From IMG/VR virus record IMGVR_UViG_2671180378_000015: DNA of 29,797 bases; one strand, given 5' to 3'. A program made the translations under genes and the position numbers. The notes below the pieces were generated by a model that searched no databases, had not been told where the DNA came from, and saw only the letters and a program-made list of their open reading frames with translations. Source of the stretch: a virus (taxonomy: Duplodnaviria; Heunggongvirae; Uroviricota; Caudoviricetes). Below, piece by piece: positions 9,634 through 23,690 of this stretch (the stretch's first letter is position 1; each line of letters opens with the position of its first letter).

Positions 9634-10044
9634 TTAGCGTGGTAAGATCTGTGTAGTTTTCTGGATGCTTTCAGTAAATAGTAATGAGTTATCAAAGGCA
9701 TAGTAATATCTTTGGTGTTCCTGGATATTTGTAACCCATCGGAAAACTCCTGCTTTAGCAAGATTTTCCCTGTATTGTTGAAATGTGATTTCTTTTGATT
9801 TCAACTTATTATAGGAGGTCTCTATAAGATGTTTGTTTCTGGAGAATTTAACATTTACAACCTTTTTGAGTCCTTTTACTAACACTATGTTGTCGTTTTC
9901 TAACACAATGTGAATATTATCTGTGGCTAAATAGTAAATATAAAGTGAGACATTGTGACGTTTTAGCTCAGAATAAAATAATTCACAGTTTAAATCTTTA
10001 CGCACTTGATCGAATATTTCTTTAAAAATGGCAGCCTGAGCCAT
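9634..10044 (-). CDS. ydfO: YdfO/YbcV-family protein (DUF1398), 136 aa
   Basis: ORF track; start taken at [19 protein letters not shown] (ATG at 10044) with GGAAGG RBS. Confidence 0.7.
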
Positions 10045-13968: not shown

Positions 13969-15476
13969 TGGCAATTCTTGATGATGTGATTGGCGTTTTT
14001 TCACCAGGATGGAAAGCGGCAAGGCTGCGTTCCCGTGCGGTGATCCAGGCTTATGAGGCCGTAAAAACGACGCGGACACACAAAGCCCGACGGGAGAACC
14101 GAACTGCCGACCAGTTAAGCCAGTACGGGGCCGTGTCGTTACGTGAGCAGGCCCGTTACCTTGATAACAACCACGATCTGGTTATTGGTGTATTTGACAA
14201 GCTGGAAGAACGGGTGGTGGGGAAAAACGGGATTATTGTCGAGCCACATCCGGTATTACGCAATGGGGCCATTGCCCGTGACCTGGCTGCGGAGATTCGC
14301 ACCCGATGGAGTGAATGGTCTGTCAGCCCGGAAGTCACCGGGCAGTTTACCCGTCCGATGCTGGAACGTCTGATGCTTCGTACCTGGCTGCGCGATGGTG
14401 AGGTGTTTGCCCAGATGGTTTCCGGGCGCATAAACAGCCTGGCGCCTTCTGCCGGTGTTCATTTCTGGCTGGAGGCGCTCGAGCCGGACTTTATTCCCAT
14501 GACTAGTGATGAGAGCAACAGGCTGAATCAGGGCGTGTTTGTTGATGACTGGGGGCGTCCCGAAAAATATCTGGTGTATAAAAGCCGTCCCGTATCCGGA
14601 CGGCAGATGGAAACCAAAGAAGTGGATGCAGAGCGAATGCTGCATCTTAAATTTGTTCGCCGTCTGCACCAGATGCGCGGGACGTCTTTGTTGTCCGGTG
14701 TGCTGATCCGCCTCAGTGCCCTGAAAGAATATGAAGATTCTGAGCTGACTGCAGCAAGGATCGCCGCTGCTCTGGGGATGTACATCAGGAAAGGCGACGG
14801 GCAGAGCTATGAACCGGATGGTAATGGCAGAAAGGAGAATGAACGTGAGCTTACCATTCAGCCGGGCATTATTTACGACGATCTGAAACCCGGCGAAGAA
14901 ATCGGAATGGTGAAGTCGGATCGCCCCAATCCTAACCTTGAAACTTTTCGTAATGGTCAGTTGCGTGCCGTGGCGGCGGGCAGTCGTCTGAGTTTTTCCA
15001 GTACAGCGCGCAACTATAACGGCACTTACAGCGCCCAGCGTCAGGAGCTGGTTGAATCCACTGATGGCTACCTGATCCTGCAGGACTGGTTTATTGGTGC
15101 CGTCACCCGCCCGATGTATCGTGCATGGCTGAAACAGGCTGTGGCATCCGGTGTTATCAGGCTACCCCGCGATCTTGACCGTTCTTCACTGTATACCGCG
15201 GTGTATTCCGGACCAGTGATGCCGTGGATTGACCCTGTTAAGGAGGCTGAGGCCTGGAAAATCCAGATTCGTGGTGGAGCGGCGACAGAATCAGACTGGG
15301 TACGTGCTGGTGGTCGTAATCCGGATGATGTCAAACGTCGGCGCAAGGCCGAAATTGATGAAAACCGCAAGCTGGATCTGGTATTTGATACCGATCCGGC
15401 CAGTGATAAAGGAGGCAGTAGTGCCGCAACGAAACGACAGGAGCCGCAGCACACCGACGACCAGTCCGAAGAATAA
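13968..15476 (+). CDS. Portal protein (lambda gpB-like), about 502 aa
   Basis: ORF track frame 13896-15476; start taken at ATG 13968 (MAILDDVIGVFSPGW) overlapping W stop; size and position. Confidence 0.8.
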   Translation: MAILDDVIGVFSPGWKAARLRSRAVIQAYEAVKTTRTHKARRENRTADQLSQYGAVSLREQARYLDNNHDLVIGVFDKLEERVVGKNGIIVEPHPVLRNGAIARDLAAEIRTRWSEWSVSPEVTGQFTRPMLERLMLRTWLRDGEVFAQMVSGRINSLAPSAGVHFWLEALEPDFIPMTSDESNRLNQGVFVDDWGRPEKYLVYKSRPVSGRQMETKEVDAERMLHLKFVRRLHQMRGTSLLSGVLIRLSALKEYEDSELTAARIAAALGMYIRKGDGQSYEPDGNGRKENERELTIQPGIIYDDLKPGEEIGMVKSDRPNPNLETFRNGQLRAVAAGSRLSFSSTARNYNGTYSAQRQELVESTDGYLILQDWFIGAVTRPMYRAWLKQAVASGVIRLPRDLDRSSLYTAVYSGPVMPWIDPVKEAEAWKIQIRGGAATESDWVRAGGRNPDDVKRRRKAEIDENRKLDLVFDTDPASDKGGSSAATKRQEPQHTDDQSEE

Positions 15477-15489
15477 TTCCTGGTTCAGG

Positions 15490-17448
15490 ATGCAGGCTGG
15501 TCACCAGAGTGACGCGGATATTTATATTTATGACGAGATTGGTTTCTGGGGTGTTACAGCGAAGCAGTTTATCAGTGATCTGAATGCACTGGGCGATATC
15601 ACCCACATTAATCTCCATATTAATTCACCGGGTGGCGATGTCTTTGAAGGCATCGCCATTTTTAATGCGCTGAAAACACATGGTGCGTCCATTACCGTTT
15701 ATGTCGACGGTGTGGCGGCGTCAATGGCGTCGGTCATTGCGATGGTAGGAAACCCGGTCATTATGCCGGAAAACTCCTTCATGATGATTCATAAACCATT
15801 TGGCTTTACGGGCGGTGATGCGGAGGACATGCGCACCTATGCCGACCTGCTCGATAAAGTTGAGGCGGTTCTGTTACCCGCTTATGCACAGAAAACCGGG
15901 AAAACCACCGATGAAATTGCTGCCATGCTGGCGGATGAGACCTGGATGTCCGGTGCCGAATGTCTGGCACAGGGATTTGCTGATCAGGTGACACCAGCCG
16001 TTAAGGCAATGGCATGTATTCAGTCAAAACGTACAGAGGAATTTAAAAAGATGCCGGAATCCATTCGAAATATGATTACTCCGCCACGCAACAGTGCTCC
16101 ACGCGTACAGGATGATGGACCTGCAGCCTCCCGGACGCCAGTGCAGGCAGCAGCACCCGTGGTGGATGAAAACAGCATCCGTGCGCAGGTCCTGGCAGAG
16201 CAAAAAGCGCGTGTAAACGGTATTAATGATCTGTTTGCCATGTTTGGCGGGCGTTATCAGTCGTTGCAGGCTCAGTGTCTTGCCGATCCTGAATGTTCGC
16301 TGGAGCAGGCCCGCGAAAAGCTGTTGAACGAGATGGGGCGCGAGTCCACGCCATCCAATAAAAATACCCCGGCTCATATTTATGCCGGTAACGGTAATTT
16401 TGTGGGGGACGGGATCCGCCAGGCGCTGATGGCGCGCGCCGGGTTTGAAAAAACTGAACGTGATAATGTCTACAACGGGATGACCCTGCGTGAATATGCC
16501 CGTATGTCACTGACTGAACGTGGTATTGGTGTTTCCAGTTATAACCCGATGCAGATGGTCGGTGCGGCGTTCACACACAGTACGTCTGACTTCGGTAATA
16601 TTCTGCTGGATGTTGCGAACAAAGCCATTCTGCAGGGCTGGGAAGATGCCCCTGAAACCTATGAACAGTGGACGCGGAAAGGTCAGTTGTCTGATTTTAA
16701 AATTGCCCATCGTGTGGGTATGGGGGGCTTCAGTGCTCTGCGTCAGGTGCGTGAAGGGGCAGAATATAAATACGTCACCACCGGAGATAAACAGGCCACT
16801 ATTGCACTGGCGACCTATGGCGAGCTGTTCAGTATCACCCGTCAGGCCATTATCAATGATGATCTGAATATGCTGACCGATGTCCCGATGAAGCTGGGCC
16901 GTGCGGCGAAATCCACTATTGCCGATCTGGTTTATGCCATTCTGACGTCTAACCCGAAAATCTCCACAGATAATGTAAGTCTGTTCGATAAAGCGAAACA
17001 TGCAAACGTACTGGAGAGCGCGGCAATGGACGTGGCATCGCTGGATAAAGCCCGCCAGTTGATGCGCGTTCAGAAAGAGGGTGAGCGTCATCTGAATATT
17101 CGTCCTGCGTTCGTACTGGTACCGACGGCGATGGAGTCTGTTGCTAACCAGGTCATTCGCTCCTCAAGTGTCAAGGGGGCTGACATTAACGCCGGTATTA
17201 TTAACCCGGTGAAAGATTTTGCGACCGTTATTGCAGAGCCTCGTCTTGATGATAACAGCCAGACCACCTTCTACCTGGCTGCGTCCAAAGGCTCCGATAC
17301 GATTGAAGTGGCTTATCTCAACGGTGTGGATACGCCATATATTGATCAGATGGAGGGCTTCAGTGTGGATGGCGTGACAACGAAAGTGCGTATTGACGCT
17401 GGTGTTGCGCCAGTTGATCACCGCGGCCTGGTGAAATGTACGGCGTAA
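15490..17448 (+). CDS. Prohead protease (ClpP/S14-like) fused to scaffold-like linker and major capsid protein (about 652 aa)
   Basis: N-terminal ClpP-like motifs (INSPGGDVFEGIAIFNAL, VAASMASVIA with catalytic-type Ser); C-terminal 330 aa resembles major capsid proteins; start ATG 15490 just after portal stop. Confidence 0.75.
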   Translation: MQAGHQSDADIYIYDEIGFWGVTAKQFISDLNALGDITHINLHINSPGGDVFEGIAIFNALKTHGASITVYVDGVAASMASVIAMVGNPVIMPENSFMMIHKPFGFTGGDAEDMRTYADLLDKVEAVLLPAYAQKTGKTTDEIAAMLADETWMSGAECLAQGFADQVTPAVKAMACIQSKRTEEFKKMPESIRNMITPPRNSAPRVQDDGPAASRTPVQAAAPVVDENSIRAQVLAEQKARVNGINDLFAMFGGRYQSLQAQCLADPECSLEQAREKLLNEMGRESTPSNKNTPAHIYAGNGNFVGDGIRQALMARAGFEKTERDNVYNGMTLREYARMSLTERGIGVSSYNPMQMVGAAFTHSTSDFGNILLDVANKAILQGWEDAPETYEQWTRKGQLSDFKIAHRVGMGGFSALRQVREGAEYKYVTTGDKQATIALATYGELFSITRQAIINDDLNMLTDVPMKLGRAAKSTIADLVYAILTSNPKISTDNVSLFDKAKHANVLESAAMDVASLDKARQLMRVQKEGERHLNIRPAFVLVPTAMESVANQVIRSSSVKGADINAGIINPVKDFATVIAEPRLDDNSQTTFYLAASKGSDTIEVAYLNGVDTPYIDQMEGFSVDGVTTKVRIDAGVAPVDHRGLVKCTA

Positions 17449-19124: not shown

Positions 19125-19868
19125 ATGACCACACCAAATCCACTGGCAAAGACGAAAGGTGCGGGGACGACGTTCTGGATGTATACCGGCAACGGCGATG
19201 CGTTTGCGAACCCTTTGTCGGACACTGACTGGCTGCGTCTTGCGATGGTGAAGGATCTGCAACCTGGCGAAATGACCGCTGATGCAGAAGATGACACTTA
19301 TCTCGATGATGAAGATGCAGACTGGAAAACGACAACCCAGGGGCAGAAATCCGTTGGTGATACTTCGGCGACGCTGGCCTGGCGTCCGGGTGACAGCGGG
19401 CAGAAAAAACTGGTTCAGTTGTTCGACTCCGGTGAAGTCTGCGCGTTTCGTATCAAATATCCCAACGGCACTGTTGATGTTTTCCGTGGCTGGCTGAGCT
19501 CACTGGGTAAAACCATTGCCTCAAAAGACGTGATGACCCGCACTGTGAAAATCAGCGGTGTGGGGCGTCCGTATCTGGCAGAGGAAGGCACTGAAACCGT
19601 GAGCGTTACCGGGCTGACAGTATCACCGGCGTCTGCCAGTGTAAAAGTGGGAGCAACCACCACGCTGACCTTTACAGTAAAACCTGACGGAGCCAGTGAC
19701 AAAGCGATCAGTGTGCATTCGTCAGATCCACAGACTGCCACGGTTACCCTGAACGGACTTGTGGCCACGGTAAAAGGCGTGAAGCAGGGCAGTGTCAGCA
19801 TTGTGGGCATGACCGCTGACGGGAATTTTGTGGCTGTGACTGCGGTGACTGTCAGCGCAGCAGGTTAA
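19125..19868 (+). CDS. Major tail tube protein (lambda gpV-like) with C-terminal Ig-like domain, 247 aa
   Basis: KGAGTTFWMYTGNGDAFANPLSDTDW...YLDDEDADW...PNGTVDVFRGW matches lambda gpV; RBS AAGGAGGTGG before ATG. Confidence 0.85.
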   Translation: MTTPNPLAKTKGAGTTFWMYTGNGDAFANPLSDTDWLRLAMVKDLQPGEMTADAEDDTYLDDEDADWKTTTQGQKSVGDTSATLAWRPGDSGQKKLVQLFDSGEVCAFRIKYPNGTVDVFRGWLSSLGKTIASKDVMTRTVKISGVGRPYLAEEGTETVSVTGLTVSPASASVKVGATTTLTFTVKPDGASDKAISVHSSDPQTATVTLNGLVATVKGVKQGSVSIVGMTADGNFVAVTAVTVSAAG

Positions 19869-19888
19869 CAGGACGATACTCATCATTT

Positions 19889-19912
19889 GCCCCGGTTATT
19901 CGGGGCTTTTTT
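19889..19912 (+). terminator. Stem-loop with U-tract after major tail gene (partial terminator)
   Basis: gccccg gttatt cggggc followed by tttttt. Confidence 0.55.
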
Positions 19913-19925
19913 GCAGGTGGAGAAC

Positions 19926-20315
19926 ATGATGTTTCTGAAACAGGACACGTTTAATTATGAAAAACAGTCCGTGGTGCTCAGTGAGCTGTCCGGGCTGCAG
20001 AGAATTGAATATCTGACGTTTGTTCAGCAGCGAACGGCAAAGTTTGATGCCGGGGAGGGAGAACTGCCGGAGGCTGAACGACAGATTGCTTTTCTGCGGA
20101 TGGGGATGGATATCAATGCCTGGCTGGTTTCCCGCTCACTGTGGAATGCGGATCAGTCTAAGGATGTAGAGACGCTTTGCGCATCCGTTATTACAACATG
20201 GTCGTATGATGCCCTGGGTGCGGGGGCGGAGATGGTTCTGTCGCTGAGCGGTATGGGGGCCATTGATAATGCCGTGGATGATGAGCATGAGGCGCTGACG
20301 CCGGAAAAGTCCTGA
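19926..20315 (+). CDS. Tail assembly chaperone G (lambda gpG-like)
   Basis: MMFLKQDTFNYEKQSVVLSELSGLQRIEYL resembles lambda gpG N-terminus; RBS GGTGGAG before ATG. Confidence 0.75.
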   Translation: MMFLKQDTFNYEKQSVVLSELSGLQRIEYLTFVQQRTAKFDAGEGELPEAERQIAFLRMGMDINAWLVSRSLWNADQSKDVETLCASVITTWSYDALGAGAEMVLSLSGMGAIDNAVDDEHEALTPEKS

Positions 20316-20653
20316 CGCGGGAAATGCAGTTTGTCATGCGGCTTGCCCGGGAGTTCCGGCGGGCAGACTGGCGGCGGATGCTGTCGGAAATGTCGGCCAC
20401 TGAGCTTGGTGAGTGGGGCGATTATTTCCGGATGCAGAGCTTCAGTGATGTGTGGATGGATGCGCAGTTTGCCTCGCTGAAGGCATTGATCGTGAGAATG
20501 GTGTCCGGCAGCAGTGATGCTGCGGTGGCTGATTTCAGCCTTTTACCGGAAGAGAACGGGATACCGGAGCGAACGGACGAAGAACTGATGCATCTTGGGG
20601 AAGGTATTTCCGGAGGTGTGCGTTATGGACCAGATAGCCAACCTGGTCATTGA
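20291..20653 (+). CDS. T segment of the G-T tail assembly chaperone, expressed by -1 programmed frameshift from G
   Basis: -1 frame open from 20291, overlapping the last 8 codons of G; candidate slip site G GAA AAG at 20303-20309. Confidence 0.6.
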   Translation, partial: GADAGKVLTREMQFVMRLAREFRRADWRRMLSEMSATELGEWGDYFRMQSFSDVWMDAQFASLKALIVRMVSGSSDAAVADFSLLPEENGIPERTDEELMHLGEGISGGVRYGPDSQPGH

Positions 20654-23600
20654 TTTGGGGATTGATGCGGCAGAGTTTAAAAATGAAATTCCCCGTATCA
20701 AAAACCTTCTGAATGGTGCAGCCAGCGATGCAGAACGGTCTTCTGCCCGTATGCAGCGTTTTATGGAGCGTCAGACTCAGGCCGCCCGGCAGACAACGCA
20801 GGCAGCTTCTTCGGCTGCAACAGCCGCATCCGTCCATGCGCAGACGGTGGAGAAGAACGCACAGGCTCATGAACGCATGGCCCGCGAGGTGGAGAAAACC
20901 CGCCAGCGCATGGAGGCACTGAGCCAGAAAATGCGCGAGGAACAGGCGCAGGCCATGGCTCTGGCGGAGGCTCAGGATAAAGCGGCTGCTGCGTTTTATC
21001 GTCAGATTGACAGTGTGAAACAGGCCAGTGCGGGGCTGCAGGAATTACAGCGTATTCAGCAGCAGATCCGACAGGCCAGAAACAGTGGCGGGATTGGTCA
21101 GCAGGATTATCTGGCGCTGATTTCTGAGGTTACTGCGAAAACCCGTGTTCTTACACAGGCTGAGGAAGAGGCTACCCGACAGAAAGTGGCGTTTATCCGT
21201 CAGCTTAAAGAGCAGGCAACCCGCCTGAATCTTTCATCTTCTGAGTTGCTTCGTGCTAAGGCAGCCCAGCTGGGGGTAAGCAGTGCTGCAGAAGTGTATA
21301 TCCGCAAAATGGAGCAGGCAGGAAAAGCCACGCATTCGCTGGGTCTGAAAAGTGCAGCAGCCCGCCAGGAGATAGGCGTTCTGATAGGTGAACTGGCCCG
21401 CGGCAATTTAGGGGCGCTGAGGGGATCCGGGATAACGCTGGCTAACCGTGCCGGATGGATAGACACACTGATGTCACCGAAAGGCATGATGCTTGGCGGG
21501 GTTATTGGCGGTATTGCCGCGGCCGTCTATGGTCTGGGTAAAGCCTGGTATGACGGTCAGAAGGAGGGGGAAGAATTTAACCGCCAGTTGTCGCTGACGG
21601 GGCATTATGCCGGAGTCACTGCCGGGCAGCTGTGGACGCTCAGTCGTGCTATTTCCGGGAATGGTATCACGCAACATGCTGCAGCCGGTGCGCTGGCTCA
21701 GGTGGTGGGGAGTGGTGCATTTCGTGGAAACGATATCGGTATGGTGGCGAGAGTTGCCGCACAGATGGAGCGATCGGTTGGCCAGTCGGTCAGCGATACC
21801 ATAAATCAGTTTAAGCGGCTGAAGGATGATCCTGTAAATGCCGCGAAGGCTCTGGACAATGAGCTGCATTTTCTTACTGCCACTCAGCTTGAGCAGATAC
21901 GCGTCCTTGGGGAGCAGGGGCGGTCCAGTGATGCTGCACGGATAGCCATGTCTGCACTGGCAGAGGAAACCGGTCGGCGTACTGCGGATATTGATAATAA
22001 CCTCAATGCGCTTGGCAGTACGCTGAAGTATCTGTCTGATTTGTGGAGTCGTTTCTGGGATGCGGCCATGAATATTGGTCGTGAAGACTCGCTGGATGAA
22101 CAGATTGCCGCTTTACAGGAGAAAGTGTCGCGGGCGAAAAGACTCCCCTGGACGGCATCATCTTCTCAGGTTGAATACGATCAGCAGCGTCTTAACGATC
22201 TTCAGGAGAAAAAACGCCAGAAGGATTTGCAGGATGCAAAAGAGCAGGCAGAGCGGAATTATCAGGAGCAACAGAAACGCCGTAATGCTGAAAATGCTGC
22301 ACTGAACCGGATGAATGAAACGGAAGCAGCACGACATCAGCGTGAAATTGCGCGTATTAATGCCATGCAGTACGCCGATCAGGCTGTCAGGGATGCGGCG
22401 ATACAACGTGAAAATGAACGTTACGAGAAAGCCCTGGCATCCGGTAAGAAAAAAACACGCGAAACCCGTAATGATGAGGCCACCCGGTTATTGCTGCAGT
22501 ACAGTCAGCAACAGGCACAGGTGGAAGGACAGATTGCTGCTGCCAGACAGTCAGCAGGCATTGCCACGGAAAGGATGACAGAAGCGCATAAACAGCTTCT
22601 GGCTCTGCAGCAGCGCATCAGCGACCTGGACGGGAAAAAACTGACGGCAGATGAAAAGAGTGTGCTGGCCCGTAAAGATGAACTGATTCAGGCACTGACG
22701 CTGCTGGATGTAAAACAGCAGGAGCTTCAGAAACAGACGGCACTCAACGAGCTGAAGAAAAAAACAATTCAGCTGACCAGTCAACTGGCTGAAGAAGAGC
22801 GCGCTCAGCGTCAGCAACATGACCTGGATATCGCCACGGTGGGTATGGGTGATCAGCAGCGACAGCGATATCAGGTACAACTGAGTCTTCGCCAGAAATA
22901 CCAGCAACAGCTGGAGCAGTTGAGGCGGGATAGTGAGCAGAAAGGGACATATAACACGGATGACTACAGAAAGGCCGAGCAGGCGCTGACGGAGAGCCTG
23001 AACCGACAACTGAATGAGAATCGCCGTTACTGGCAACAGCTTGAAGTTGTGCAGGGTAACTGGAAAAACGGAGTCCTGCGTGCATTTCAGGATTTTACCG
23101 TGGATGCAGATAATACGGCAGAAACAGCAGAACAGGTGTTCTCGTCAGCCTTCAGCAACATGGGAAATGGCCTGGCAACTTTTGTCACTACCGGCAAACT
23201 CAATTTCAAATCCTTCACCTCTTCTGTGCTGTCAGATATGGCGAAAATCCTGGCGCAGGCAACCATGATGAAATCGATAAAAGGGATTGGCAGTGTACTG
23301 GGATTTGATCTCAGCAGCCTTTCCCTGAATGCCAATGGGGGGATTTATCAGTCTGCTGATTTGAGTCGTTACAGTGGCACGGTGGTTAACCGTCCGACGT
23401 TTTTTGCTTTTGCAAAAGGCGCGGGTGTGATGGGGGAAGCGGGACCTGAAGCCATTCTGCCATTGCGTCGTGGTGCTGACGGTAAGCTGGGGGTTGTGGC
23501 GGATATTGGGGGGTCAGGTATGGCGATGTTTTCCCCGCAGTACAACATCGAGATCAATAACGATGGCACGAACGGGCAGATAGGTCCGGCTGCCCTGAAG

Positions 23601-23690
23601 GCGGTTTATGACCTCGGGAAAAAAGCGGCAGCGGACTTTATGCAACAGCAGGCCCGTGATGGTGGTCGGTTAAGTGGAGCATATCGGTAA
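20625..23690 (+). CDS. Tail tape measure protein (lambda gpH-like), about 1021 aa
   Basis: Long Ala/Gln-rich coiled-coil protein; C-terminus NNDGTNGQIGPAALKAVYD matches lambda H; start ATG 20625 with GGAGG RBS. Confidence 0.85.
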   Translation: MDQIANLVIDLGIDAAEFKNEIPRIKNLLNGAASDAERSSARMQRFMERQTQAARQTTQAASSAATAASVHAQTVEKNAQAHERMAREVEKTRQRMEALSQKMREEQAQAMALAEAQDKAAAAFYRQIDSVKQASAGLQELQRIQQQIRQARNSGGIGQQDYLALISEVTAKTRVLTQAEEEATRQKVAFIRQLKEQATRLNLSSSELLRAKAAQLGVSSAAEVYIRKMEQAGKATHSLGLKSAAARQEIGVLIGELARGNLGALRGSGITLANRAGWIDTLMSPKGMMLGGVIGGIAAAVYGLGKAWYDGQKEGEEFNRQLSLTGHYAGVTAGQLWTLSRAISGNGITQHAAAGALAQVVGSGAFRGNDIGMVARVAAQMERSVGQSVSDTINQFKRLKDDPVNAAKALDNELHFLTATQLEQIRVLGEQGRSSDAARIAMSALAEETGRRTADIDNNLNALGSTLKYLSDLWSRFWDAAMNIGREDSLDEQIAALQEKVSRAKRLPWTASSSQVEYDQQRLNDLQEKKRQKDLQDAKEQAERNYQEQQKRRNAENAALNRMNETEAARHQREIARINAMQYADQAVRDAAIQRENERYEKALASGKKKTRETRNDEATRLLLQYSQQQAQVEGQIAAARQSAGIATERMTEAHKQLLALQQRISDLDGKKLTADEKSVLARKDELIQALTLLDVKQQELQKQTALNELKKKTIQLTSQLAEEERAQRQQHDLDIATVGMGDQQRQRYQVQLSLRQKYQQQLEQLRRDSEQKGTYNTDDYRKAEQALTESLNRQLNENRRYWQQLEVVQGNWKNGVLRAFQDFTVDADNTAETAEQVFSSAFSNMGNGLATFVTTGKLNFKSFTSSVLSDMAKILAQATMMKSIKGIGSVLGFDLSSLSLNANGGIYQSADLSRYSGTVVNRPTFFAFAKGAGVMGEAGPEAILPLRRGADGKLGVVADIGGSGMAMFSPQYNIEINNDGTNGQIGPAALKAVYDLGKKAAADFMQQQARDGGRLSGAYR

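What the first reader, a model, noticed from the sequence alone, without database searches (positions are those of the whole stretch)
20291..20313. G-T programmed -1 frameshift with a variant slippery site
The T frame is open from 20291 and overlaps the last codons of G, as required for the conserved G/G-T tail assembly chaperone frameshift. The only candidate slip heptamer is G GAA AAG (20303-20309) rather than the canonical lambda G GGA AAG. The P-site codon would re-pair imperfectly, so frameshift efficiency or mechanism may differ.
Basis: partly seen in the sequence, partly recalled or inferred. Interest (0 to 1): 0.4.

Follow-up and report, generated by a model that had tools for sequence, protein, structure and literature searches.

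The report
Known G-T tail chaperone frameshift site
This is the ordinary lambda-type G/G-T tail-assembly-chaperone -1 frameshift of an mEp460/cdtI-like E. coli prophage, and its "variant" slip sequence G GAA AAG is real but widespread and already annotated as the slippery sequence in phage N15.

Summary
Gene G (19929-20315, PF06894) ends ...ACG CCG GAA AAG TCC TGA. The -1 (T) frame (PF06223) is open from 20291. G GAA AAG (20303-20309) is the only place in the 25-nt overlap where tRNAs could re-pair in the -1 frame. Lambda has GCG GGA AAG at the same point.

The heptamer is not peculiar to this window:
- It is invariant in 171/171 loci of the window's own G clade (E. coli, Salmonella Gifsy-2, Citrobacter; 56-100% aa identity).
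- It is present in 79/80 phi80/mEp043-like loci and in 6 Providencia-like loci.
- The N15 GenBank record marks exactly GGAAAAG as "slippery sequence for -1 translational frameshift".
- The codon before GAA always ends in G although it encodes P, A, V or L, which argues for a true heptamer.

The T frame shows coding-type substitutions directly after the heptamer and has no conserved start codon, so T is read as a 241-aa G-T fusion.

My additions:
- An SD-like GAGG lies 10 nt upstream and recurs in this clade, but statistical support is weak.
- There is no conserved downstream structure.
- Every record of this G clade that I inspected, including RefSeq E. coli genomes, annotates T as a separate gene.

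Verdict: real, correctly interpreted, already known, low interest.

The parts
19125..19868 (+). Major tail (tube) protein V homologue with a C-terminal Big_2 domain; upstream neighbour of G.
   Evidence: Pfam PF16461 at 5e-67 plus PF02368. Annotated as major tail protein in mEp460 and RefSeq.
19889..19916 (+). Terminator-like GC hairpin plus T-run between V and G.
   Evidence: Consensus scan. The same position is annotated as a rho-independent terminator in mEp460 and Ayreon and in N15.
19929..20315 (+). Gene G, tail assembly chaperone, 128 aa. An alternative ATG lies at 19926.
   Evidence: PF06894 at 3.8e-40. PGAP calls it gpG from the second ATG.
20289..20292 (+). SD-like GAGG, 10 nt 5' of the heptamer. 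It is a candidate frameshift stimulator (inferred).
   Evidence: An SD-like 4-mer lies 9-13 nt upstream in 11/11 first-set lineages and in 2 of 5 test lineages, with a third at 14 nt. The known effective spacing for -1 shifts is 9-14 nt (PMC5009743). Significance is weak.
20291..20315 (+). G/T overlap: the stretch where the 0 and -1 frames are both open.
20303..20309 (+). Shift heptamer G GAA AAG. tRNA-Glu would move GAA->GGA and tRNA-Lys AAG->AAA.
   Evidence: Invariant in relatives. The identical 7-mer is annotated as the slippery sequence in N15.
20309..20653 (+). T-frame part of the G-T fusion (114 codons plus stop). The predicted junction is ...ALTPEK|VLTREMQFVMRL...
   Evidence: PF06223 at 5e-15. 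Fusion of 241 aa. Coding-type substitution pattern in the T frame from the heptamer onward.
20324..20326 (+). ATG used as the 'T' start in several database annotations (mEp460, RefSeq E. coli, Sakai). Probably not a real start.
   Evidence: This codon is Met in only 7 of 16 lineages and Q/R/L/I in the others.
20625..23690 (+). Tape measure protein H homologue; downstream neighbour that overlaps the end of T.
   Evidence: PF06791, PF09718 and PF24622.

Best explanation
A small fraction of ribosomes translating gene G slip back one nucleotide on G GAA AAG (20303-20309). They continue in the T frame and make a 241-aa G-T fusion (G residues 1-127 plus 114 T-frame residues; junction ...TPEK-VLTRE...). 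Most ribosomes terminate two codons later and make the 128-aa G. As in lambda, G and G-T would together chaperone the tape measure protein and recruit the tube protein.

The likely slip is a tandem shift. A-site tRNA-Lys moves from AAG to the better-matched AAA. P-site tRNA-Glu moves from GAA to GGA, keeping first- and third-position pairs with a U.G at the second position.

Status of each step:
- Shown here: gene identities, frame arrangement, uniqueness and conservation of the heptamer, coding constraint in the T frame, and absence of a conserved T start.
- Inferred: the tandem (rather than single-tRNA) slip, stimulation by the GAGG 10 nt upstream pairing with 16S rRNA, and the efficiency.
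For: - Pfam assigns G, T, V and H.
- The frames and heptamer are read directly from the sequence.
- CCG GAA AAG YCN TGA is invariant in 171/171 fetched loci of this G clade, although the codons just upstream differ. The same holds in Gifsy-2 and Citrobacter and in five further lineages.
- G GAA AAG is also fixed in 79/80 phi80/mEp043-like loci and in 6 Providencia-like loci.
- The preceding codon is CCG, GCG, GTG, CTG or TTG. It always ends in G while the amino acid changes.
- The N15 record annotates GGAAAAG as the slippery sequence. Gifsy-2 T is annotated as part of a 'G+G' frameshift hybrid'.
- In the 45 nt after the G stop, the synonymous share of codon differences is 0.45 in the T frame against 0.05 and 0.14 in the other frames. 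Neither nearby Met codon is conserved.
- Isolated phages (mEp460, Ayreon, Tritos, cdtI, PhiR55_1) carry the G-T region at 97.7-99.9% identity. The junction sequence itself was read only in mEp460 and Ayreon, where the heptamer is intact.
- The SD-like element sits at 10-12 nt, within the 9-14 nt range effective for -1 shifts (PMC5009743).
Against: - No protein or reporter data exist for this locus.
- In a reconstituted E. coli system, AUG GAA AAG gave mainly 0-frame product and was used as the 'less slippery' control against G GGA AAG (PMC6924986).
- Tetramer motifs without stimulators are at background level, about 0.15% (PMC4066793).
- No conserved downstream structure was found: z = -1.06 and an unfavourable covariation term.
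- The SD-like element is weakly supported. The synonymous-resampling null averages 0.37 per lineage, the GAG share in these genes is 0.52, and only 3 of 5 unseen lineages have a 4-mer within 9-14 nt.
- The SD-like element is absent from the phi80/N15, Providencia and lambda sites.
Confidence: 0.85

Rival explanations
1. T is a separate protein initiated at ATG 20324, possibly by termination-reinitiation after the G stop 8 nt upstream. This is how several of the inspected records, including RefSeq E. coli, annotate it. No frameshift would be needed.
For: An ATG lies 8 nt after the G stop. mEp460, RefSeq E. coli and Sakai annotate a 109-aa T from it.
Against: That codon is Met in only 7 of 16 lineages, and the next Met is missing in Gifsy-2 and L177. 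The T frame shows coding-type substitutions upstream of both Met codons, starting at the heptamer. The -1 frame stays open across the heptamer in every lineage. In lambda the T segment is made only as G-T (Levin 1993 and Xu 2013, as cited in PMC5009743).
Confidence: 0.06
2. The shift is a single-tRNA slip of tRNA-Lys on A_AAG, the NNA_AAG hexamer type seen in IS1222 and B. subtilis cdd. tRNA-Glu would not re-pair. The product is identical.
For: A_AAG is the shiftiest tetramer in E. coli (PMC4066793). Natural CGA_AAG sites are known (PMC5009743). tRNA-Glu on GGA is a second-position mismatch (PMC6924986).
Against: Heptamer position 1 is G in every lineage across five different preceding codons and four amino acids. 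A tetramer or hexamer model does not require this. Tetramers without a strong stimulator are at background, and no downstream stimulator is conserved. From my own knowledge of Licznar 2003 (not checked here), GAA is read by a restricted-wobble mnm5s2U34 tRNA, the class reported to limit hexamer shifting.
Confidence: 0.25
3. The site is a decayed remnant. A G-to-A mutation of a lambda-like G GGA AAG in a defective prophage means G-T is no longer made.
For: It differs by one nucleotide from the canonical heptamer. The sequence is mostly found in prophages.
Against: The heptamer is fixed in hundreds of loci across three clades, and no PEK-clade member carries GGGAAAG. Isolated phages carry the G-T region at 97.7-99.9% identity, and the heptamer is intact in the two whose junction was read, mEp460 and Ayreon. 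The T frame is under coding constraint.
Confidence: 0.02
4. RNA polymerase slippage on the A run yields an mRNA lacking one A, which encodes G-T directly.
For: A short A run (AAAA) lies at the junction.
Against: The run is only 4 nt. From established knowledge, productive transcriptional slippage in bacteria needs runs of about 7-9 or more. The conserved flanking G and the GAA phase have no role in this model.
Confidence: 0.01

Closest known systems
Phage N15 genes 14/15 (and the phi80 G/T region): G-T -1 frameshift on GGAAAAG
   Same: Same Pfam G family, same gene order, same -1 relation, and the identical heptamer G GAA AAG. The N15 record marks 10027-10033 as 'slippery sequence for -1 translational frameshift'. 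phi80, mEp043 and Eeyore carry the same heptamer.
   Different: G is only about 33-35% identical to phi80-type G proteins. In N15 and phi80 the 0-frame stop is 15 nt after the heptamer and the preceding codon is GCG, and no SD-like element lies within 9-14 nt. In the window the stop is 3 nt after the heptamer, the preceding codon is CCG, and GAGG lies 10 nt upstream.
Phage lambda G/G-T frameshift (G GGA AAG)
   Same: Homologous G and T domains, between V and H. A short overlap at the 3' end of G. A -1 shift on a Gly/Glu-Lys dipeptide site that ends in A AAG. The function of G and G-T as tape-measure chaperones is taken from PMC5009743.
   Different: Heptamer position 3 is A rather than G, so the P-site tRNA is tRNA-Glu re-pairing near-cognately instead of tRNA-Gly re-pairing cognately. 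G is about 32% identical.
Salmonella phage Gifsy-2 STM1039/STM1041.1n and E. coli phages mEp460 and cdtI
   Same: Same G clade (56% to more than 97% identity) with the identical ACG CCG GAA AAG TCC TGA junction. Gifsy-2 T is annotated as part of a frameshift hybrid protein.
   Different: Essentially nothing differs for mEp460 and cdtI. No record of this clade that I inspected annotates a joined CDS or marks the heptamer.
E. coli dnaX -1 frameshift (A AAA AAG with an SD-like element 10 nt upstream and a downstream hairpin)
   Same: tRNA-Lys AAG->AAA in the A site. An SD-like element lies 10 nt upstream of the heptamer (spacing rule in PMC5009743).
   Different: No conserved downstream hairpin. 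The P-site re-pairing is near-cognate. The SD-like element is only 4 nt long (aSD duplex about -5.6 kcal/mol in the window) and its role is untested.

Membership tests
Lambda-type G/G-T tail assembly chaperone programmed -1 frameshift | The upstream ORF is a gpG-family tail assembly chaperone. | tested here: met
   PF06894 Phage_TAC_2, E = 3.8e-40, full-length match.
Lambda-type G/G-T tail assembly chaperone programmed -1 frameshift | The downstream segment is a gpT domain in the -1 frame, overlapping the 3' end of G. | tested here: met
   PF06223 at 5e-15 in the frame open 20291-20653, which is -1 relative to G.
Lambda-type G/G-T tail assembly chaperone programmed -1 frameshift | The pair lies between the major tail protein gene and the tape measure gene. 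| tested here: met
   V homologue upstream and TMP_2/Tape_meas_lam_C protein downstream.
Lambda-type G/G-T tail assembly chaperone programmed -1 frameshift | A canonical X XXY YYZ slippery heptamer lies in the overlap. | tested here: not met
   The heptamer is G GAA AAG, so the P-site triplet GGA in the -1 frame is near-cognate for tRNA-Glu. It is nevertheless identical to the heptamer annotated as slippery in N15 and is conserved in three clades.
Lambda-type G/G-T tail assembly chaperone programmed -1 frameshift | The T segment has no independent conserved start and is under coding constraint from the shift site. | tested here: met
   Synonymous share 0.45 in the T frame against 0.05 and 0.14 in the other frames. 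Met codons are not conserved.
Lambda-type G/G-T tail assembly chaperone programmed -1 frameshift | A G-T fusion protein is produced at a few percent of G and is required for tail assembly. | not testable with these tools
   Needs a western blot, mass spectrometry or reporter assays.
SD-stimulated bacterial -1 frameshift (dnaX / IS type) | An SD-like sequence lies 9-14 nt 5' of the shift site. | tested here: inconclusive
   GAGG sits at 10 nt in the window. An SD-like 4-mer is present in 11/11 first-set lineages and in 3/5 held-out lineages within 9-14 nt. The synonymous-codon null averages 0.37 per lineage and the GAG share is 0.52, so the pattern could follow from a conserved Glu/Gln-Ala/Val dipeptide.
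SD-stimulated bacterial -1 frameshift (dnaX / IS type) | A downstream stem-loop or pseudoknot lies 5-9 nt after the heptamer. | tested here: not met
   No common fold among lineages. Alifold gives -8.4 kcal/mol with a covariation term of +0.52. The window z-score is -1.06. There are no Rfam hits.
Hexanucleotide NNA_AAG single-tRNA -1 shift (IS1222, B. subtilis cdd) | A_AAG is preceded by a codon read by an extended-wobble tRNA, with no constraint on the nucleotide 5' of that codon. | tested here: not met
   The preceding codon is GAA. That its tRNA has restricted wobble (mnm5s2U34) comes from my own knowledge, not from a test here. The nucleotide 5' of GAA is invariably G across CCG, GCG, GTG, CTG and TTG.

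The most novel reading that the evidence does not exclude
G GAA AAG is a naturally selected near-cognate shift heptamer. On its own it is too weak, as in vitro it behaves as 'less slippery'. Each clade would then have found its own compensation. In the window's clade this would be an SD-like GAGG/GGAG 10-12 nt upstream plus a 0-frame stop one codon after the site. The phi80/N15 clade would rely on something not yet identified. If so, these G-T junctions would be a ready-made natural series for measuring how second-position U.G re-pairing of tRNA-Glu and rRNA-mRNA pairing trade off in setting a fixed G:G-T ratio.
Probability: 0.25. Interest if true: 0.4.

Novelty: already known. Interest (0 to 1): 0.15.

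Why it matters
There is little new biology. The G-T frameshift is a textbook recoding event, and this heptamer has been marked as slippery in the public N15 record.

Two practical points remain:

1. Every record of this G clade that I inspected annotates T as a free-standing gene and omits the G-T join. This holds for the three phage records (mEp460, Ayreon, Gifsy-2) and the two E. coli genome records I opened. The hit table shows G and T as separate features in all listed genomes, and the sequence is present in 1845 of 5426 complete E. coli genomes. Proteome and pangenome analyses therefore carry a wrong protein model.

2. A heptamer used as the non-slippery control in a ribosome kinetics paper is in fact a conserved natural shift site in several phage clades. 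This is worth knowing when interpreting in-vitro slipperiness scales.

Tried and rejected
- **Downstream stimulatory structure.** Single-sequence folds of 11 lineages share no helix. The helix predicted in the window starts at the nucleotide right after the heptamer, too close to act. Alifold shows no covariation support.
- **Upstream mini-hairpin GGCG-CTGA-CGCC (20291-20302).** It abuts the heptamer and would lie inside the ribosome when the site is decoded. It is not conserved as a pairing in the Salmonella lineages. I rejected it as a stimulator on inference.
- **Rfam scan of 19800-20800.** Only two chance-level hits.
- **Natural G-T fusion proteins in the protein database (P0025, P0039).** These are internal deletions, not slips at the heptamer, so they say nothing about the site.
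- **Literature search for G GAA AAG as a phage shift site.** The open-access library held only Peng 2019, which uses it as a weak control, and an unrelated plant virus with UGAAAAG. Xu, Hendrix and Duda 2004 is not held.
- **Genome-contig scan with an alignment.** It returned only 10 loci. Diversity had to come from viral contigs, phage records and exact-protein look-ups.
- **SD-like element as a universal partner of G GAA AAG.** Rejected, because the phi80/N15 and Providencia clades lack it.

Full report
**What the window is.** The 821 bases around the finding are 97.6-99.9% identical to Escherichia phages PhiR55_1, mEp460, Tritos, cdtI, Ayreon and others. The same G-T stretch occurs in 1845 of 5426 complete E. 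coli genomes, almost always on the chromosome, including prophage Sp3 of O157:H7 Sakai. It is therefore a common lambdoid (pro)phage tail module.

**Checking the observation.** Reading the sequence directly and listing ORFs gives these features:
- Gene G runs from ATG 19929 (or 19926) to the TGA at 20313-20315.
- Its last codons are GAG GCG CTG ACG CCG GAA AAG TCC TGA.
- The frame one base back has a TGA at 20288-20290 and is then open to 20653.
- GGAAAAG occupies 20303-20309, phased G GAA AAG.

Pfam assigns the products as follows:

| Product | Pfam family | E-value |
|---|---|---|
| G | PF06894 (lambda gpG chaperone) | 3.8e-40 |
| -1 frame product | PF06223 (minor tail protein T) | 5e-15 |
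| Upstream gene | lambda tube protein family plus Big_2 | 5e-67 (PF16461) |
| Downstream gene | lambda-type tape measure protein | 3.4e-49 (PF06791) |

Lambda reads TCT GCG GGA AAG TGT at the corresponding place. None of the other codons in the 25-nt overlap can re-pair in the -1 frame. The 7-mer alone is common, with 12 copies in the window against 4.7 expected. The argument therefore rests on phase, position and conservation.

**How widespread the heptamer is.** I collected G-T junctions from IMG/VR contigs, GTDB genomes, GenBank phages and exact-protein look-ups.

| G clade | Junction sequence | Count |
|---|---|---|
| Window's clade (G ends (T/S/L)PEK(S/P); E. coli, Shigella, Salmonella incl. 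Gifsy-2, Citrobacter; 56-100% aa identity) | CCG GAA AAG YCN TGA | 171/171 fetched loci, plus five further lineages |
| Lambda / 434 / some Stx2a phages | GCG GGA AAG | 80/80 |
| phi80 / mEp043 / Eeyore | (GCG or GTG) GAA AAG CCC TTG CCA GCG AGC TGA | 79/80 |
| Providencia-like | (CTG or TTG) GAA AAG TAG | 6 |
| Providencia-like sister lineage | ATG GGA AAA TAG | 3 |
| Stx2_95 | TCA AAA AAG | 1 |
| Ewingella-like | CTG GCA AAA TAG | see calls |

Some contigs in the window's clade were fetched twice. The codons just upstream of the heptamer vary within that clade. G GAA AAG is thus one of the two major shift heptamers of this protein family. It differs from lambda's by a single transition. Each clade is fixed for its own version.

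**Why it is already known.** The GenBank record of phage N15 (NC_001901) carries a misc_feature at 10027-10033 labelled "slippery sequence for -1 translational frameshift". The bases there are GGAAAAG, phased GCG GAA AAG. The Gifsy-2 record, from the window's own clade with the identical ACG CCG GAA AAG TCC TGA junction, labels T as "part of G+G' frameshift hybrid protein". PRFect also lists a "twofour" pattern, which by its name would be XXYYYY (my reading; its definition is in a supplementary figure I did not open), among motifs recurring in annotated tail-chaperone frameshifts (PMC10885494). I could not read Xu, Hendrix and Duda 2004.

**Evidence that T is read by frameshifting.** I aligned 16 lineages of the window's clade from the heptamer onward.
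- In the 45 nt after the G stop, 45% of pairwise codon differences are synonymous in the T frame. The other two frames give 5% and 14%.
- Examples are GAA/GAG at a conserved Glu and TTT/TTC at a conserved Phe.
- The ATG at 20324, which mEp460, RefSeq E. coli and Sakai use as the T start, is Met in only 7 of 16 lineages.
- The next Met is absent in Gifsy-2 and one other lineage.

The T frame is therefore translated from upstream of any conserved start codon. The only entry is the heptamer. The predicted product is 241 aa with junction ...HEALTPEK-VLTREMQFVMRL....

The base before GAA is G in every lineage. Yet the codon it belongs to is CCG, GCG, GTG, CTG or TTG, encoding P, A, V or L. A pure A_AAG or NNA_AAG mechanism places no demand on that base. 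A tandem slip does, because tRNA-Glu then keeps a G-C pair at position 1, has U.G at position 2 and keeps position 3.

This is indirect evidence for heptamer-level function with near-cognate P-site re-pairing. The literature bears on it as follows:
- Bock et al. 2019 (PMC6787027) estimated +5.1 kJ/mol for A.U->G.U at a first position and -2.9 kJ/mol for G.S->A.S at the A-site wobble. Second-position changes were not measured, so any energy estimate for this site is an extrapolation.
- Peng et al. 2019 found AUG GAA AAG to give mainly 0-frame product with wild-type EF-G and called it less slippery than G GGA AAG (PMC6924986).
- Sharma et al. 2014 found tetramers without stimulators at background level (PMC4066793).

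How this site reaches a useful level is therefore not explained by the heptamer alone.

**Candidate stimulators.**
- *Downstream.* Nothing is conserved. Folds differ between lineages. The consensus fold is weak, with an unfavourable covariation term. The window's own fold is no better than shuffles, at z = -1.06. Rfam finds nothing.
- *Upstream, observation.* The window has GAGG at 20289-20292, exactly 10 nt before the heptamer. The effective range for -1 shifts is 9-14 nt (PMC5009743). An SD-like 4-mer (GAGG, GGAG, AGGA or AGGT) lies 9-13 nt upstream in all 11 lineages first examined. The positional null is 0.07 per lineage.
- *Upstream, caveats.* The synonymous-codon null averages 0.37, and GAG makes up 52% of Glu codons in these genes. 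Of five lineages fetched afterwards as a test, two have a 4-mer at 10-13 nt and one at 14 nt, which is three within the 9-14 nt range; two have only AGG. The phi80/N15, Providencia and lambda sites lack such an element.

I rate an SD-like stimulator in this clade as possible but unproven, at about 0.35.

**Comparison and verdict.** This is a member of the lambda G/G-T frameshift system. It meets every defining feature I could test except the strictly canonical X XXY YYZ pattern. Its non-canonical heptamer is the same one annotated in N15 and shared by phi80, Gifsy-2, mEp460 and cdtI.

The residual points of interest are modest:
- T is annotated as a separate gene in every record of this clade that I inspected.
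- There is a contrast between this heptamer's in-vitro reputation and its natural conservation.
- There is a weak hint of an upstream SD-like helper.

Noticed in passing
window 19889-19916: A GC-rich hairpin plus T-run lies between the major tail gene V and gene G. The same position is annotated as a rho-independent terminator in mEp460, Ayreon and N15. A conserved terminator or attenuator there could set the V:G expression ratio.
   Followed up: partly
window 20324-20653 and homologues in databases: mEp460, RefSeq E. coli and Sakai annotate T as a separate 109-aa gene starting at a non-conserved ATG. Ayreon starts it further downstream, and Gifsy-2 starts it inside the overlap. No join or ribosomal_slippage was seen in any record of this clade that I opened, and the sequence is present in 1845/5426 complete E. 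coli genomes. Only the phage 434 record among those inspected has a joined G-T CDS.
   Followed up: partly
L274, L365-L373, L178-L181, L270 (G-T junctions of distant G clades): In several distant clades the slip site abuts the 0-frame stop directly: G GAA AAG TAG, G GGA AAA TAG, and GCA AAA TAG. The last has no canonical heptamer at all. This suggests a stop-codon-assisted P-site slip of tRNA-Lys.
   Followed up: no
L275 (Stx2a-converting phage Stx2_95): This G-T junction uses the dnaX-type heptamer A AAA AAG. At least four different shift sequences therefore occur within one G protein family.
   Followed up: no
window, whole: GGAAAAG occurs 12 times on both strands against 4.7 expected from dinucleotide shuffles, and 0 of 100 shuffles reach 12. 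This is probably a composition or codon effect. I did not check which copies are in phase within genes.
   Followed up: no
window 15229-17448: A very long ORF (739 aa by the mechanical ORF list) lies upstream of the tail genes, in the position of the head protease and major capsid genes. It may be a fused protease-capsid gene. It was not scanned against any family library.
   Followed up: no
proteins P0001, P0004, P0025, P0039: The protein database holds aberrant relatives of this G: an internal duplication, a read-through into the +1 frame, and two G-T fusions created by internal deletions. They are likely assembly or sequencing artefacts or decayed prophages. None is a slip-site fusion.
   Followed up: partly
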